A DNA stretch of 64,000 nt from Minisyncoccota bacterium (GCA_041666545.1 JBAYGS010000002.1:106395-170394); one strand, 5' to 3'; shown: positions 13,776 to 62,790, counted from the stretch's first letter. Notes: a model not told the origin generated them from the sequence alone. Numbers and translations: made by a program.

Positions 13776-13867
13776 CGAGGGCACATGAATAAGTGAGTAG
13801 TGGGTAGTTTGGGAAGTACTAGATTTCCTGTGCTATAATCATTTTGTCTTTAACAATAAACTAATAA

Positions 13868-13908
13868 TCCCGACGTCAGAAGTCGGGATCCCGACCGAAG
13901 CGTTGGGG
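13868..13908 (+). repeat. composite GC-rich double-hairpin element (copy 1 of 4)
   Basis: TCCCGACGTCAGAAGTCGGGA + TCCCGACCGAAGCGTTGGGG. Related copies at 58277-58328, 61297-61347 and 62741-62790, each adjacent to GTAGT-type repeats. Confidence 0.5.
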
Positions 13909-13925
13909 CTAACTACTCACTTCTT

Positions 13926-14204
13926 ATGAATCCCGACGAAAAACAAATGCTCCGCGATATTGCCGAGCAGGTGGCCGAGAATAATAAACTTCTGCATAAG
14001 CTTTATAGCAAGGCCAGATGGGGGACAGTTGTCAGGGCCGCGTACTGGCTCGTGATTATCGGTCTATCGGTGGGGTCGTATTACTTCATCCAGCCCTATG
14101 TAAACCAGTTGATGGGTGTCTATAGTGGTTTAGGTGCGGATGTTGGCACTGTAAAAAGCGTGGCCGGTGGAGCGACTGATTTGTTGAAAAATCTCGGCAG
14201 ATAG
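13926..14204 (+). CDS. hypothetical membrane protein (92 aa)
   Basis: Single central TM helix. No recognisable motif. Confidence 0.3.
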   Translation: MNPDEKQMLRDIAEQVAENNKLLHKLYSKARWGTVVRAAYWLVIIGLSVGSYYFIQPYVNQLMGVYSGLGADVGTVKSVAGGATDLLKNLGR

Positions 14205-14239
14205 GCTAAACTCTCTAGGTCTGGGTCTGCCAGATAAAT

Positions 14240-14315
14240 GCCGAGATAGCTCAGTTGGTAGAGCATTCCCCTGAAGAGGGAAGGGTCCCCAGTTCGAACC
14301 TGGGTCTCGGCACCA
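14240..14315 (+). tRNA. tRNA-Phe (anticodon GAA), CCA encoded
   Basis: GCCGAGATAGCTCAGTTGGTAGAGC...TTCCC-CTGAAGA-GGGAA...GGGTCCCCAGTTCGAACCTGGGTCTCGGCACCA gives a canonical cloverleaf. Confidence 0.9.
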
Positions 14316-14326
14316 AAATATTAAAA

Positions 14327-14362
14327 CAAAACCAAAACCGCCCTAGGGCGGTTTTGGTTTGG
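14327..14362. terminator. bidirectional intrinsic terminator
   Basis: AAAACCAAAACCGCCCTAGGGCGGTTTTGGTTTGG lies between tRNA-Phe (+) and the hsp20 gene (-). Confidence 0.65.
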
Positions 14363-14363
14363 C

Positions 14364-14822
14364 TTATGAATTTGATTTGACCCGGAGTTTGGTTTGCTTG
14401 CCTTTGTCAATCTTCGGCAGACGAATCGTAAGGAGGCCGTGTTTCTCGGAAGCATCGGCTTCGTCGGCTTGGACCTCGGCCGGTAGGAGAATGGTCCTAG
14501 AAAATGAGCCCCAATAGAGTTCCTTGACGAAATAATCCTCGTCAGCTACCTCGTGGGTTTCTTCACGGGTGCCTTTGATTGTCACCATATCTCTGGTGAT
14601 GGAAATATCGAGGTCTTCCGGTTTGACTCCGGCGACCATGGCCTTGACGATAATTTCATTGGGGGTCTGATGGACATCAACTGTCAGCTGGCCGACATCG
14701 CCACCTTCCTCCAGCCAATTTTCACCTTTTTCCTCAATCTCGGAGCCGGCATCGTCATTCATCGCCTTCTCATCAAGTCGAATAGTACCGGTTAATTTTT
14801 CAAAAAAAGATCTCTTGGCCAT
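14364..14822 (-). CDS. Hsp20/alpha-crystallin family small heat-shock protein
   Basis: Alpha-crystallin domain (TVDVHQTPNEIIVKAMVAGVKPEDLDISI...TIKG). Confidence 0.8.
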   Translation of the reverse strand: MAKRSFFEKLTGTIRLDEKAMNDDAGSEIEEKGENWLEEGGDVGQLTVDVHQTPNEIIVKAMVAGVKPEDLDISITRDMVTIKGTREETHEVADEDYFVKELYWGSFSRTILLPAEVQADEADASEKHGLLTIRLPKIDKGKQTKLRVKSNS

Positions 14823-14827
14823 ATGAT

Positions 14828-60758: not shown

Positions 60759-60838
60759 AAACCGCCCCTCACTTGCGAGCAAGTGGGGGGTTTTAAATTT
60801 AAAAGCCCCGCGCATGTTGCATGCGCGGGGCGAAGTCG

Positions 60839-61177
60839 TCAGCCGATTTTGCTGGCGTAGGTCGAAGGATTAGGGTCCGGATTTTTTCGGTCGAATTCGG
60901 CGCCGGCCTTTTGCATGAAATCCAATTTGGCGAGATTGTGCATCTGTTTCTTGATTTGACGGTCGGCATCGACACGCCGGAGTCTCTCAAACTCCCTCTT
61001 TGTTCGGAATTTTTCTGCTCGGATTTTTTTGGCGAGAGCTTTCGGCAGAGTTTGCCCGGTCTCGAGTACGGATTTCACTCTGGCCAGTAGGTCTTCCAGG
61101 AATTCCGAGCGACACTCGGGATGCCAAGGCGTAGTAGTCATTCTTTCGCAGTAAGGACAGGGTCTGATACAAGCCAT
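60839..61177 (-). CDS. hypothetical CxxC protein (112 aa)
   Basis: CIRPCPYCE...C cysteine cluster and a basic helical C-terminus. Terminator GCCCCGCGCATGTTGCATGCGCGGGGC downstream on the minus strand. Confidence 0.3.
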   Translation of the reverse strand: MACIRPCPYCERMTTTPWHPECRSEFLEDLLARVKSVLETGQTLPKALAKKIRAEKFRTKREFERLRRVDADRQIKKQMHNLAKLDFMQKAGAEFDRKNPDPNPSTYASKIG

Positions 61178-61235
61178 AATTTTCCTTTCTCTTCTCGGCT
61201 TAGATTACATCTTTAAATTAGTTTGTCAATCAAAA

Positions 61236-61262
61236 CCCCCGCTCGTTTCGAGCGGGGGTTTT
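61236..61262. terminator. bidirectional terminator (CCCCCGCTCGTTTCGAGCGGGGG)
   Basis: GC hairpin between an A-run and a T-run, downstream of rpsA (minus). Confidence 0.6.
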
Positions 61263-61296
61263 GTCTTATTCTCCACTACTTACTACTACCTACTAA

Positions 61297-61347
61297 TCCT
61301 GACGTCAGAAGTCGGGACCCCGACCTTTGTAAGACAAAGCGTCGGGG
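61297..61347 (-). repeat. composite double-hairpin element (copy 3, inverted) flanked by GTAGT repeats
   Basis: TGACGTCAGAAGTCGGGA + CCCCGACCTTTGTAAGACAAAGCGTCGGGG, with CTACTTACTAC tracts on both sides (61273-61296 and 61348-61362). Confidence 0.6.
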
Positions 61348-61354
61348 CTACTTA

Positions 61355-62572
61355 CTACTTAGTCGCCTCAACAAAAGACAGCGCCATCTTCTGCTCCTTG
61401 GCATCAAAGAGGGCAATCTTGAATGAGTAGGTTTTGCCGAGCTCCAATTTCTCGCGCAACTTTTCTTCACTGCCAAATTCGCTCACATGGACCAAACCGG
61501 CCACACCCTCTTCAATTGAGGCGAGAGCGCCATGCTTGTTGAATTTGATGACCACGCCCTTGACCAGCTGATCTTTCTTGTATTTCTTGCCGGCCTCAAT
61601 CCAAGGGTTCGGCTTCAGGGCCTTGATGGAGAGGGAAATTTTGCCATCTTTGACATCGATGACTTTGACGCGGATTTTGTCGCCGACTTTGTAAAGCAAT
61701 TTTGGATTTTCAACCAGCGCCCAATCCATTTCGCTGATGTGGACCAAACCTTCGAGACCGTCTTCAACTTTCACGAAGACTCCGAAATCAACGATGCCGG
61801 TGACTTCGCCATCCAAAACATCGCCAATCGTGTATTTCTCGACAATTTTTTCCTTTTCCTTCTGTTCAGGATTTTTCTCGGAGAAAATCAGCTTGCCTTC
61901 TTTAGGGTTGGCGCCGATAATCGCGACGGCAATTTTCTGGCCGAGCAATTTTTTCAATTCTTCCAAAATTCGGTCCTTGTCGCCATCCTCAACGCGAGGG
62001 TAGTGCTCTGGCTTCAACTGGGAAGCCGGCAAGAAACCGGAGATGCCTTGCCATTCCAAAATCAAACCGCCTTTGTTGGCCTCTTTGACTGGCAATTCGA
62101 AAATAGTTTTCGAGGCGATAGCCGCTTCGGCTTCGCTCCAAACAATCGCTTGGCGAGCTTCCTTGAGGGAAAGTTCCCAATAACCTTCTTCGTGGTCGGT
62201 GCCGACAACCTTGGCCGCGATGACATCGCCGACATTGATTTTTTTAATGATTTCTCGGGCAACGATAAATTCCCGGCCGTAAATGATACCGGTTCCGTAC
62301 GGAGCGAGGTCGACATAGACGGAAGCTTTTTCGATGGCAATCACCGGACCTTCAACCAAGTCGCCAACTGATGGCGGGTTCTTGGTTTCGGACATCAACT
62401 TGCCCATCAAGCTCTGCTTCTTTTGGCGGGCTTCTTTTTCTTCGTTGGTTTCCTCGACTTTATCTTTTTCTTTAATTTCTTTGGTGGCCTTCTTGGCCTC
62501 CTTGGTTTCTACAACTTCTTCGGCCACTTTGACTTCATCAGTCTTGGCCGACTTTCTGCTAAAAATTCCCAT
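61355..62572 (-). CDS. rpsA: 30S ribosomal protein S1 (four S1 domains)
   Basis: Repeated S1 OB-fold modules (GxV.G.V..I..FG.FV) and a Lys/Glu-rich N-terminus. Confidence 0.8.
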   Translation of the reverse strand: MGIFSRKSAKTDEVKVAEEVVETKEAKKATKEIKEKDKVEETNEEKEARQKKQSLMGKLMSETKNPPSVGDLVEGPVIAIEKASVYVDLAPYGTGIIYGREFIVAREIIKKINVGDVIAAKVVGTDHEEGYWELSLKEARQAIVWSEAEAAIASKTIFELPVKEANKGGLILEWQGISGFLPASQLKPEHYPRVEDGDKDRILEELKKLLGQKIAVAIIGANPKEGKLIFSEKNPEQKEKEKIVEKYTIGDVLDGEVTGIVDFGVFVKVEDGLEGLVHISEMDWALVENPKLLYKVGDKIRVKVIDVKDGKISLSIKALKPNPWIEAGKKYKKDQLVKGVVIKFNKHGALASIEEGVAGLVHVSEFGSEEKLREKLELGKTYSFKIALFDAKEQKMALSFVEATK

Positions 62573-62682
62573 ATATTTAAAAAGCCGGCAGGTTTCGCTA
62601 CTCGTGGACTGAATGATCCCTAAGCGAGGTTACTTGCCAGTACTTCTAATAATGGGAGAGAGTATACCTGAGGAAGGGGAAA

Positions 62683-62790
62683 TAGTAAATAGATAGTAGT
62701 TAGTAGTAAGTAGGTAGTAGTCAGTAGTGAAGAAGATAAAAGCCCCGACGCTTTGTCTGACAAAGGTCGGGGCGGGGTCGGGGACAGGGT
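62683..62790 (+). repeat. GTAGT repeat tract + composite hairpin element (copy 4) upstream of rpsA
   Basis: AATAGATAGTAGTTAGTAGTAAGTAGGTAGTAGTCAGTAGTG ... CCCCGACGCTTTGTCTGACAAAGGTCGGGGCGGGGTCGGGG. Confidence 0.6.

What the first reader, a model, noticed from the sequence alone, without database searches (positions are those of the whole stretch)
13794..62730. Dispersed GTAGT/ACTAC short-repeat family inserted in frame inside essential genes (valS, tsaD) and at many 5' UTRs
Tracts built from GTAGTGGGTAGTGAGTAGT-like units occur at least 12 times: 13794-13820, 15533-15620 (inverted pair), 17642-17676, 20311-20346, 20552-20580, 33305-33345, 52881-52912, 58329-58350, 61273-61296, 61348-61362, 62683-62730. 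A related GGTAT/AGTAT variant is at 1714-1785, 5217-5256 and 13484-13530. Three copies lie inside coding sequence and keep the reading frame, being multiples of 3 nt. In valS the copy adds LPTTHYSLPTTH just before the HIGH motif. In tsaD two copies add LPTTHYPLPT and LPTHYSLQT. The ftsZ upstream ORF reads LLTTHYQLPTNF. In all of these the gene sense strand carries the CTAC orientation. In-frame expansion of aaRS and TsaD cores by a genome-wide repeat is unusual. It suggests either a mobile mini-insertion under frame selection or a protein or RNA recognition element.
Basis: seen in the sequence. Interest (0 to 1): 0.7.

Follow-up and report, generated by a model that had tools for sequence, protein, structure and literature searches.

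The report
Seven-base repeat tracts in a tiny bacterium
The GTAGT/ACTAC tracts are a real family of 7-base tandem repeats in an uncultured Paceibacteria (candidate phyla radiation) genome, of a kind already described in Xanthomonas, Nostoc and Beggiatoa. What is unusual is that they fill the same variable loops of essential proteins in related lineages and are rewritten there without any change in length.

Summary
The window, a Candidatus Paceibacterota MAG, holds 15 tracts of tandem 7-nt units against about 0.5 in shuffles, and no other period is enriched to that degree. Most tracts are (GTAGTNN)n.

Three heptamers make 21 nt, so every reading frame gives the same cyclic peptide, LPTTHYS. The GTAGT orientation has a TAG every 7 nt, so only the ACTAC orientation can lie inside a gene.

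The tracts are not fresh insertions. The valS linker is 39 nt with the same CTA register in six lineages, each with its own unit. It is the least conserved stretch of valS (about 45% against 80% identity to the closest relative), yet it has no indels. The tsaD and lepA loops and the ftsZ leader behave in the same way.

In intergenic DNA the G-rich form follows stop codons and the C-rich form precedes start codons. This is the polarity published for the Xanthomonas and Nostoc heptamer repeats. Inverted pairs form a hairpin between valS and prsW that shows compensatory changes across lineages.

Verdict: a heptanucleotide simple-sequence-repeat family, a new variant of a known kind. Its function is unproven.

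The parts
1708..1778 (+). GTATAAG/GGTATAT-type heptamer tract. It starts at the stop codon of the + gene 1201-1713.
   Evidence: TRF period 7, 10.6 copies; context.
5218..5255 (+). AAGGTAT heptamer tract between the stop codon of the + gene 2934-5216 and a terminator-like hairpin.
   Evidence: 82% identical to 1743-1781 (family D20).
10511..10559 (+). CAAATYC-like repeat tract inside lepA, in the loop before the NLIDTPGH-type motif. L250 has a CTAKACG heptamer tract at the same site.
13484..13516 (+). AAGTAT(A) tract between the glutaredoxin stop codon (13480) and the terminator hairpin at 13525-13558.
13792..13815 (+). GTAGT-type tract (G-rich form on +) lying upstream of a TGCTATAAT -10-like box.
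   Evidence: family D5.
13909..13921 (+). Short ACTAC copy (CTAACTACTCACT) 4 nt upstream of the ATG at 13926.
15525..15559 (+). 3' arm of the valS-prsW spacer hairpin. It reads ACTAC on the minus (sense) strand and ends 7 nt (about 13 nt for the last clear unit) before the prsW ATG.
15587..15620 (-). 5' arm of the same hairpin. It reads GTAGT on the sense (minus) strand and begins right after the valS stop codon.
   Evidence: (family D3, 91% to 33310-33343).
17642..17676 (+). valS linker tract. The sense strand reads CTCCCCA CTACTCA CTACTCA CTACCCA CTACTCA, coding NLPTTHYSLPTTH between FFNPD and F.LIMPPTNANG.
17785..17806 (+). CCCAAAA-type heptamers (sense strand) coding the N-terminal extension DPKPEIQN of ValRS. 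The extension is absent in the 90%-identical relative.
20311..20346 (+). tsaD loop 2 tract (SLPTTHYPLPT), just before the LPRPML motif.
20552..20614 (+). tsaD loop 1, made of two adjoining heptamer tracts. The ACTAC-type codes KLLPTHYSLQTP and the TCCAAAT-type codes NNQFPNSKS.
33310..33343 (-). ACTAC tract on the + strand, directly abutting a truncated tRNA-Glu copy.
51584..51700 (-). The largest array, (GTAGTAAGTAGATA) x 8.4 on the sense (minus) strand. It starts 4 nt after the ftsZ stop codon and is followed by a terminator hairpin at 51544-51574.
52877..52912 (+). ftsZ leader tract. The sense strand reads CTACTCA CTACTCA CTACCAA CTACCAA CTAATTTC-ATG, with no Shine-Dalgarno motif. The orthologous L248 leader has CTAKAAG units.
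58277..58352 (+). Composite module after the pth stop codon: hairpin A (CCCCGAC..GTCGGGG), hairpin B (CCCGACTTCTGACGTTGGG), then a GTAGT tract at 58329-58352.
   Evidence: (I1, 80 nt, 90% to 61275-61354).
61275..61362 (-). The same composite module inverted. After the stop codon of gene 61355-62572 (minus strand) come TAAGTAGTAAGTAG, hairpin A, hairpin B and a GTAGT tract.
62683..62772 (+). Tract with TAGT cores on the + strand (62683-62730) next to a copy of hairpin A (62743-62772). It lies between two minus-strand genes.
13869..13887 (.). A further copy of hairpin B, about 50 nt from the 13792 tract.

Best explanation
These tracts are a lineage-specific family of heptanucleotide simple-sequence repeats. 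The unit is GTAGTNN, or NNACTAC on the other strand. More generally the repeat is a CTA/TAG core every 7 nt.

Shown:
1. The tracts are tandem 7-nt units. They sit mostly at gene boundaries and are depleted in coding sequence.
2. The TAG-bearing orientation sits on the sense strand directly after stop codons. The stop-free CTA orientation sits directly before start codons, or in frame inside tolerant loops.
3. The coding tracts occupy the same loop sites in related lineages. They keep their length and their CTA register, but their other positions are replaced much faster than the flanking sequence. They resemble other tracts in the same genome more than the orthologous tract in other genomes.
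4. Where a G-form and a C-form tract flank one spacer, they form a hairpin whose pairing is kept by compensatory changes.

Inferred:
- Units are generated and homogenised by slipped-strand mispairing and short templated conversion, both within a tract and between tracts. Selection removes any product that shifts the frame, introduces a stop codon or changes the loop length.
- The paired tracts act as intercistronic RNA stem-loops that stabilise or process the transcript.
- The G-free leader copies provide an unstructured, Shine-Dalgarno-independent start region.
- The coded LPTTHYS-like peptides are passive loop filler.
For: Periodicity: only period 7 is strongly enriched. Relatives also show period 7 only, each with its own units.

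Depletion in genes: 5 of 15 tracts lie in coding sequence although 84% of the window is coding.

Orientation and frame: both follow from the sequence itself. Among 43 ORF-spanning cases elsewhere, all are in the ACTAC sense.

Polarity: in 154 non-coding GTAGT arrays from species-representative genomes, the G-sense follows the end of an ORF of at least 100 aa in 65 cases. In 37 of these the stop codon lies at or before the tract start. The C-sense follows an ORF end in only 10. The C-sense precedes a start codon in 24 cases and the G-sense in 7. Rehm et al. 2015 (PMC4692102) report the same polarity for the Xanthomonas and Nostoc heptamers.

Orthologous sites:
- The valS linker is 39 nt with the same register in W (this window), L007, L247, L248, L250 and L251. 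The units are CTACYCA, CTACCAG, CTAWACG and CTARAAG.
- tsaD loop 1 is heptamer-coded in five lineages, tsaD loop 2 in two and lepA in two or three.
- The ftsZ leader and the ftsZ 3' tract are both present in L248.

Turnover: against L251 (ValRS 90% aa identical, valS 80% nt identical, no gaps) the tract is the least conserved 39-nt window of the gene, at 44-46% against a mean of 80% (SD 8).

Concerted change: unit identity between loci within this window is 0.82. At the same locus between this window and L248 or L250 it is 0.58.

Hairpin: z-scores are -4.6 (W), -5.35 (L251), -3.6 (L250), -2.3 (L247) and -2.4 (L006). The consensus structure has 24 pairs, 8 with double compensatory changes and almost none broken.

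Leaders: the organism rarely uses Shine-Dalgarno motifs (16 of 64 genes on a loose criterion), and the starts that abut tracts have none.
Against: - No length polymorphism was observed directly. All copies of this strain found in public assemblies are identical, so slippage is inferred and not seen.
- A CTA/TAG core conserved across lineages and loci while the other four positions turn over is not predicted by neutral slippage alone. It hints at a constraint I cannot identify.
- Covariation between hairpin arms could come from templated (quasi-palindrome) repair as well as from selection on the RNA.
- The consensus fold rests on only three sequences.
- The hairpin leaves the last 24 nt or so before the prsW ATG unpaired, so a role in translational occlusion or coupling is not supported.
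- In L250 and L251 the coding units differ from that genome's own spacer units. Homogenisation between loci is therefore clear only in this window.
Confidence: 0.7

Rival explanations
1. The tracts are a recognition code. They would be binding sites, as RNA or DNA, for a trans-acting protein or for antisense pairing between GUAG-form and CUAC-form tracts. This would define a post-transcriptional regulon that links valS, tsaD, lepA, ftsZ and prsW. The unit sequence would co-evolve with the factor in each lineage.
For: - Many loci in one genome share the same unit set, while the orthologous loci in other genomes carry another.
- The CTA/TAG core is conserved while the spacer positions change.
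- The polarity relative to stop and start codons is strict.
- The ftsZ transcript would carry a CUAC tract in its leader and a 116-nt GUAG array in its 3' end.
- Published speculation exists for other heptamer families (PMC4679880; bioRxiv 10.1101/2022.06.06.494920).
Against: - No candidate factor was identified.
- Several unrelated heptamer families coexist in the same genome.
- In L250 and L251 the coding and spacer tracts use different units.
- Composition-matched control heptamers are as common as GTAGT in viral contigs, so the wide distribution shows no special conserved motif.
Confidence: 0.15
2. The tracts are a mobile miniature insertion element, MITE- or REP-like. It would insert copies into genes and spacers, and only the in-frame, stop-free copies would survive.
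For: - Distant copies share the order of variant units. 15587-15620 is 91% identical to 33310-33343 over 34 nt and 86% to 52877-52912.
- An 80-nt composite of two hairpins plus a tract occurs twice at 90% identity.
- All four hairpin loci lie next to tracts.
Against: - No terminal inverted repeats or target-site duplications are visible.
- Close relatives have tracts of identical length and register at the same sites, with different units and not empty sites.
- The valS linker length is constant in six lineages.
- No transposase is associated with the tracts.
Confidence: 0.08
3. The tracts are G-quadruplex-forming repeats like the Xanthomonas and Nostoc heptamers. They would act through four-stranded structures in DNA or RNA.
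For: - The period, the typical unit number of 4-5 and the polarity all match the published G4 heptamers.
- Some units are TAGTGGG.
Against: Most units (GTAGTGA, GTAGTTG, GTAGTAA, GTAGTTT, GTATAAG) have no G-run. No tract has four GGG runs.
Confidence: 0.03
4. The in-frame tracts are assembly or gene-calling artefacts.
For: Short repeats are hard to assemble. One JGI contig of this strain carries a run of N nearby.
Against: - Identical tract-bearing ValRS and TsaD sequences occur in independent ENA, NCBI and JGI assemblies.
- The reading frames are intact, with conserved motifs on both sides of each tract.
- Relatives have heptamer-coded segments at the same sites.
Confidence: 0.01

Closest known systems
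G-rich heptameric simple-sequence repeats of Xanthomonas (GGGAATC) and Nostoc PCC 7120 (GGGGAYT), Rehm et al. 2015, PMC4692102
   Same: - 7-nt tandem units with a conserved core and heterogeneous remaining positions.
- Mostly about four units per tract.
- Dispersed genome-wide, under-represented in coding sequence, with occasional inverted pairs.
- Identical polarity: the G-rich strand is the sense strand within 50 bp after, or overlapping, the stop codon, and the C-rich strand is the sense strand within 50 bp before the start codon.
   Different: - The unit is GTAGTNN with no four G-runs, so no quadruplex is expected.
- The host is a small-genome Patescibacteria lineage.
- Several copies lie in frame in essential genes at sites shared with relatives.
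- Paired tracts form a hairpin with compensatory changes.
TAACTGA direct repeats of marine Beggiatoaceae, cyanobacteria and Bacteroidetes, MacGregor 2015, PMC4679880
   Same: - Heptamer repeats of 2-6 or more copies, mostly intergenic and often within a few bases of start codons that lack Shine-Dalgarno motifs.
- One orientation has stop codons in all three frames.
- The other orientation occurs inside ORFs and codes a 7-aa cyclic peptide (LSVISYQ there).
   Different: - In that system the stop-containing orientation is the one upstream of start codons. Here it is the stop-free orientation.
- In-ORF copies there lie mostly in hypothetical proteins or at protein ends. Here they lie in internal loops of ValRS, TsaD and LepA.
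Long simple sequence repeats (LSSR) of prokaryotes, Mrazek et al. 2007, as summarised in PMC4679880 and PMC4692102
   Same: Heptanucleotide units are the commonest long-SSR class in many genomes, and polymerase slippage is proposed as their origin.
   Different: That work is a general statistical survey. It did not describe tracts that preserve site, length and register while being rewritten inside essential genes.
Cyanobacterial STRR heptamers (Calothrix and Anabaena; from my own knowledge, and cited as reference 39 in PMC4692102)
   Same: Tandem heptanucleotide repeats dispersed in intergenic DNA, with unknown function.
   Different: The unit sequences differ (CCCCAGT, TTGGTCA and CAACAGT, recalled from memory) and the phylum differs.
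REP/BIME-type extragenic palindromes (from my own knowledge)
   Same: Dispersed intergenic hairpins lying after stop codons within operons. The two GC-rich hairpins next to four of the tracts resemble them, and so does the valS-prsW stem-loop.
   Different: The hairpin arms here are built from tandem heptamers, and each lineage uses different units.

Membership tests
Heptanucleotide SSR families (LSSR class; Xanthomonas/Nostoc type) | Head-to-tail tandem units of exactly 7 nt, with at least 2-3 units | tested here: met
   Chains occur only at spacing 7, with 0 in shuffles. TRF finds period 7, 14 and 21 rows. 15 tracts against about 0.5 in shuffles.
Heptanucleotide SSR families (LSSR class; Xanthomonas/Nostoc type) | Many dispersed loci share one consensus, with a conserved core and variable other positions | tested here: met
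   At least 14 loci in 64 kb have a GTAGT or TAGT core. The whole genome could not be censused.
Heptanucleotide SSR families (LSSR class; Xanthomonas/Nostoc type) | Under-represented in coding sequence and concentrated near gene ends | tested here: met
   5 of 15 tracts are in coding sequence at 84% coding density. Contexts are shown.
Heptanucleotide SSR families (LSSR class; Xanthomonas/Nostoc type) | Polarity: G-rich strand is the sense strand just after the stop codon, and C-rich strand is the sense strand just before the start codon | tested here: met
   Window contexts. In the GTDB sample, 65 against 10 after ORF ends and 24 against 7 before start codons. Published rule.
Heptanucleotide SSR families (LSSR class; Xanthomonas/Nostoc type) | Unit number and sequence vary between related strains or species | tested here: inconclusive
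   Unit sequence varies strongly between lineages. Tract length at the valS linker and the valS-prsW arms is conserved. No strain-level polymorphism data were found.
G-quadruplex heptamer repeats (Rehm 2015 subclass) | Four or more consecutive G-runs able to form a G4 | tested here: not met
   No tract has four GGG runs, and most units lack a G-run.
TAACTGA repeats (MacGregor 2015) | Unit is TAACTGA, and the stop-containing orientation lies directly upstream of start codons | tested here: not met
   The unit differs, and here the stop-free orientation precedes start codons.
MITE or other miniature mobile insertion | Terminal inverted repeats, target-site duplication, and filled versus empty sites in relatives | tested here: not met
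   No such ends are visible. Relatives carry tracts of the same length at the same sites rather than empty sites.
Contingency (phase-variation) SSR loci | Changes in unit number switch a reading frame or a promoter on and off | not testable with these tools
   This needs population read data. Coding tracts lie in essential genes and keep a constant length across lineages, which argues against frame switching there.

The most novel reading that the evidence does not exclude
The tracts would be more than passive microsatellites. They would be maintained by an active, sequence-directed process or a trans-acting factor that recognises a CTA/TAG core every 7 nt. That process would rewrite all tracts of a genome in concert, including those inside valS, tsaD and lepA. 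GUAG-form and CUAC-form tracts would pair, in cis and perhaps in trans, to tie together the expression of translation and cell-division genes in these reduced genomes.
Probability: 0.12. Interest if true: 0.8.

Novelty: new variant of a known kind. Interest (0 to 1): 0.5.

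Why it matters
Heptamer repeats are the commonest long microsatellites in bacteria, yet no function or origin has been established for them. This window and its relatives add three things.
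1. The published stop/start polarity holds for a family that cannot form G-quadruplexes. G4 formation is therefore not the common cause of that polarity.
2. Such tracts can persist for a long time at the same loop positions of essential proteins (ValRS, TsaD, LepA). There they are overwritten far faster than the rest of the gene without ever changing length. This is a clean natural example of repeat-driven loop evolution under a strict frame and length filter.
3. Paired tracts build a conserved intercistronic hairpin.

The set of Paceibacteria lineages identified here gives a tractable comparative system for testing slippage, gene conversion and a recognition role against each other.

Tried and rejected
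- Rfam: the gathering-threshold scan of the window found only RNase P RNA and tRNAs and nothing at the tracts.
- G-quadruplex reading: rejected from the unit sequences.
- Translational coupling by occlusion of the prsW start: not supported, because the hairpin leaves the last 24 nt or so unpaired.
- Wide taxonomic spread of GTAGT arrays as evidence for a special conserved element: rejected after controls. Composition-matched cores GATGT, GTGAT and AGGTT give 116, at least 120 and at least 120 viral loci. Any heptamer array is common in collections of this size.
- 'Independent insertion at a hot spot' for valS: replaced by positional homology once the DNA showed the same 39-nt length and register in six lineages. 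An NJ tree places this ValRS next to a relative with the non-repeat linker, so recombination or a tree artefact remains open.
- Strain-level length variation, sought through exact-protein contigs and 90% clusters: only identical copies or a 90%-identity relative were found.
- Literature search for such repeats in Patescibacteria: nothing relevant in the held library.
- My first Python shuffle run timed out and was repeated.

Full report
**Source.** The window equals positions 85,368-149,367 of a 194-kb metagenome contig, ENA ERZ27249449 k141_1294488. Its proteins are deposited as a 'Candidatus Paceibacterota bacterium' MAG, for example MFA6536289. ValRS homologues are named Paceibacterota, Taylorbacteria or Nomurabacteria, which places the organism in the candidate phyla radiation.

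**Observation.**
- The signal is a strict 7-nt periodicity. Chains of at least three GTAG/CTAC or TAGT/ACTA cores occur only at spacing 7. None occur at spacings 5, 6, 8 or 9, and none in 100 shuffles.
- A core-independent scan gives 15 period-7 tracts against about 0.5 in shuffles. Other periods give at most 5.
These are CCCAAAA at the valS N-terminus, TCCAAAT in tsaD, a CAAATYC-like tract in lepA and GTCAAAT in pth.

**Why the orientation and the 'frame' look selected.** Seven and three are coprime, so three units (21 nt) pass through all three frames. (CTACTCA)3 therefore reads LLTTHYS, or a cyclic permutation of it, whichever frame is used. No frame selection is needed beyond keeping the total insertion length a multiple of three. 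The complementary strand (TGAGTAG) carries TAG or TGA in every frame. Only the ACTAC orientation can survive on a sense strand. In 43 ORF-spanning cases collected from other genomes and metagenomes, all were in that orientation.

**The coding tracts are old, shared sites and not fresh insertions.**
- Among 120 ValRS homologues, the segment between FFNPD and F.IMPPTNANG is hypervariable. Most carry a VCIEKG..DA.. linker, and others carry LP..Y.L-type peptides.
- At the DNA level the linker is 39 nt in W, L007, L247, L248, L250 and L251. It always starts with a CTCCC-type unit (GTTCCTA in L007) followed by four heptamers that begin with CTA.
- The remaining positions are lineage-specific: CTACYCA (W), CTACCAG (L007, L247), CTAWACG (L248, L250) and CTARAAG (L251).
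- The closest relative found is L251, with ValRS 90% identical and valS 80% identical at the nucleotide level over 2160 nt without a single gap. Against it, the tract is the least conserved 39-nt window of the whole gene, at 44-46% versus a mean of 80% (SD 8). The CTA register and the length are nevertheless intact.
- tsaD loop 1 (K-L-x-A-T-R-Y-x-L-type) is heptamer-coded in L007, L248, L249 and L250 with ACGCTAY units, and in W with YCACTAC units. tsaD loop 2 is heptamer-coded in W and L248.
- The lepA loop before NLIDTPGH is heptamer-coded in L250, and W and L247 carry a CAAATYC-like repeat there.
- Compared with solved structures these loops are extra residues. They amount to about 24 and 11 aa in TsaD (8iey) and 8 aa in ValRS (1GAX).
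- Compared with close relatives the valS linker is not longer (13 aa against 13-14 aa). 'Expansion' is therefore true only on a deep timescale.
- Unit identity is 0.82 between different loci of W but 0.58 between W and L248 or L250 at the same locus. In this lineage the tracts have changed in concert.

**Intergenic anatomy.**
- The TAG-bearing (G-rich) form lies on the sense strand immediately after stop codons. Examples are valS, ftsZ, the gene at 61355-62572 and pth. The GTAT-type tracts after three + strand genes follow the same rule.
- The stop-free form lies directly before start codons (prsW, ftsZ, the gene at 13926) with no Shine-Dalgarno motif.
- This organism uses such motifs rarely, in 16 of 64 genes on a loose criterion.
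- The rule holds in an unbiased sample of 154 non-coding GTAGT arrays from species-representative genomes. The G-sense follows an ORF end in 65 cases, and in 37 of them the stop codon lies at or before the tract start. The C-sense follows an ORF end in 10. The C-sense precedes a start codon in 24 cases and the G-sense in 7.
- This is exactly the polarity published for the G-rich heptamers of Xanthomonas and Nostoc. Here it holds for units that cannot form quadruplexes.
- Orthologous spacers in relatives show the same layout. L248 has a CTAKAAG tract abutting the ftsZ ATG. After ftsZ it has a TAGT-type tract, then a terminator, then a C-form tract before trxB.

**Hairpins.**
- In W, the valS-prsW spacer consists almost entirely of a G-form arm starting at the valS stop codon and a C-form arm ending just before the prsW ATG.
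- It folds at -30.4 kcal/mol (z = -4.6). The corresponding spacers fold at z = -5.35 in L251, -3.6 in L250, -2.3 in L247 and -2.4 in L006. The last two use A/T-rich heptamers instead.
- In L004 the two genes overlap, and L249 has an 18-nt spacer.
- A consensus fold of W, L251 and L250 has 24 pairs, 8 with compensatory double changes and almost none broken.
- In every inverted pair I examined, the G-form comes first.
- Four tracts adjoin copies of two GC-rich hairpins, forming an 80-nt composite module that is present twice at 90% identity.

**What it is.** It is a heptanucleotide simple-sequence-repeat family of the known LSSR class, and new for Patescibacteria as far as the held literature shows. 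I infer generation and homogenisation by slippage and short templated conversion. Selection would then act as a filter on frame, stop codons and loop length. A structural role is likely for the paired tracts. The conserved CTA/TAG core and the concerted change across loci are not fully explained by neutral slippage. They keep a recognition-element reading alive, at about 0.15.

**Controls and limits.**
- GTAGT arrays occur in many phyla and in viral contigs. Composition-matched control heptamers are just as frequent, so that breadth says nothing specific about GTAGT.
- In-frame ACTAC tracts elsewhere lie in a LepA-like GTPase, DnaE, UvrC, an RmlB-like enzyme, GT2, DegT, a signal peptidase and PMT. 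Such tracts in conserved genes are therefore not peculiar to this genome.
- I could not census the whole genome, see strain-level polymorphism, or test expression.

Noticed in passing
window 17850-18400 (minus strand): A promoter-like site (TTGACT-17-TAAACT with a TG, 18401-18373) is followed by about 480 nt of GC-rich non-coding sequence. It ends in a terminator-like hairpin (17885-17850) just upstream of the valS ATG, so it looks like a long structured leader or ncRNA. It has no credible Rfam match. It is absent from the 125 nt upstream of valS in L251, and L004 has only 33 nt between tsaD and valS.
   Followed up: partly
window 17814-19898: Relative to L004 (tsaD and valS 33 nt apart) this genome has about 2 kb inserted between tsaD and valS. 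The insert includes an opposite-strand ORF, 18648-19892 (414 aa, rich in E, K and A, coiled-coil-like).
   Followed up: no
window 33342-33530: A 52-nt copy (94% identical) of the 5' half of the tRNA-Glu gene at 33538-33610, including its leader. It is followed by about 110 nt of GC-rich sequence where the 3' half should be. Neither ARAGORN nor Rfam calls it. It may be a truncated duplicate or an interrupted tRNA.
   Followed up: partly
window 13636-13656 and 13765-13785: The last 21 nt of tRNA-Arg(CCT) are repeated exactly 129 nt downstream. This resembles the att-site scar of an integrated and then lost element. A GTAGT tract follows immediately.
   Followed up: no
window 6351-6431, 25406-25446, 45612-45663, 63169-63254: A separate dispersed repeat of about 40 nt, TATTCGTGTGCCCTATTCGTAAGGGTTCTTAAC. 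It has six copies in both orientations at 88-100% identity, some in tandem, and all are intergenic.
   Followed up: no
window 33801-33844, 34109-34149, 44832-44880: A dispersed palindrome, TCTATTCTAGCTTTTTGCAAAAAGCTAGAATAGAG, with three good copies and a weaker one at 20851.
   Followed up: no
window 39935-39991 and 41762-41818: A 57-nt repeat (88% identical) consisting of a hairpin plus GGGGGACATATTTAAGT, ending at the ATG of two different genes. It may be a shared leader or regulatory element.
   Followed up: no
window, many gene starts (e.g. 33866, 45724, 47433, 53395-54567): Few genes have a Shine-Dalgarno motif. Several have a TATAAT-like box only about 7-12 nt upstream of the ATG, which suggests frequent leaderless or very short-leader mRNAs.
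   Followed up: partly
window valS/tsaD compared with L004: Gene histories disagree. ValRS is 87% identical to L004 but TsaD only about 50%. More distant ValRS relatives (78%) have TsaD at 54-55%. The GC content also differs (45% against 37%). This suggests recombination or transfer of valS.
   Followed up: partly
window 23053-23253: A 78-nt tandem repeat (2.3 copies, 83-91% identical) inside the minus-strand ORF 22920-23543.
   Followed up: no
window 5825-6281: Bacterial RNase P RNA class A (115 bits). Two ORFs listed mechanically over it are spurious.
   Followed up: yes
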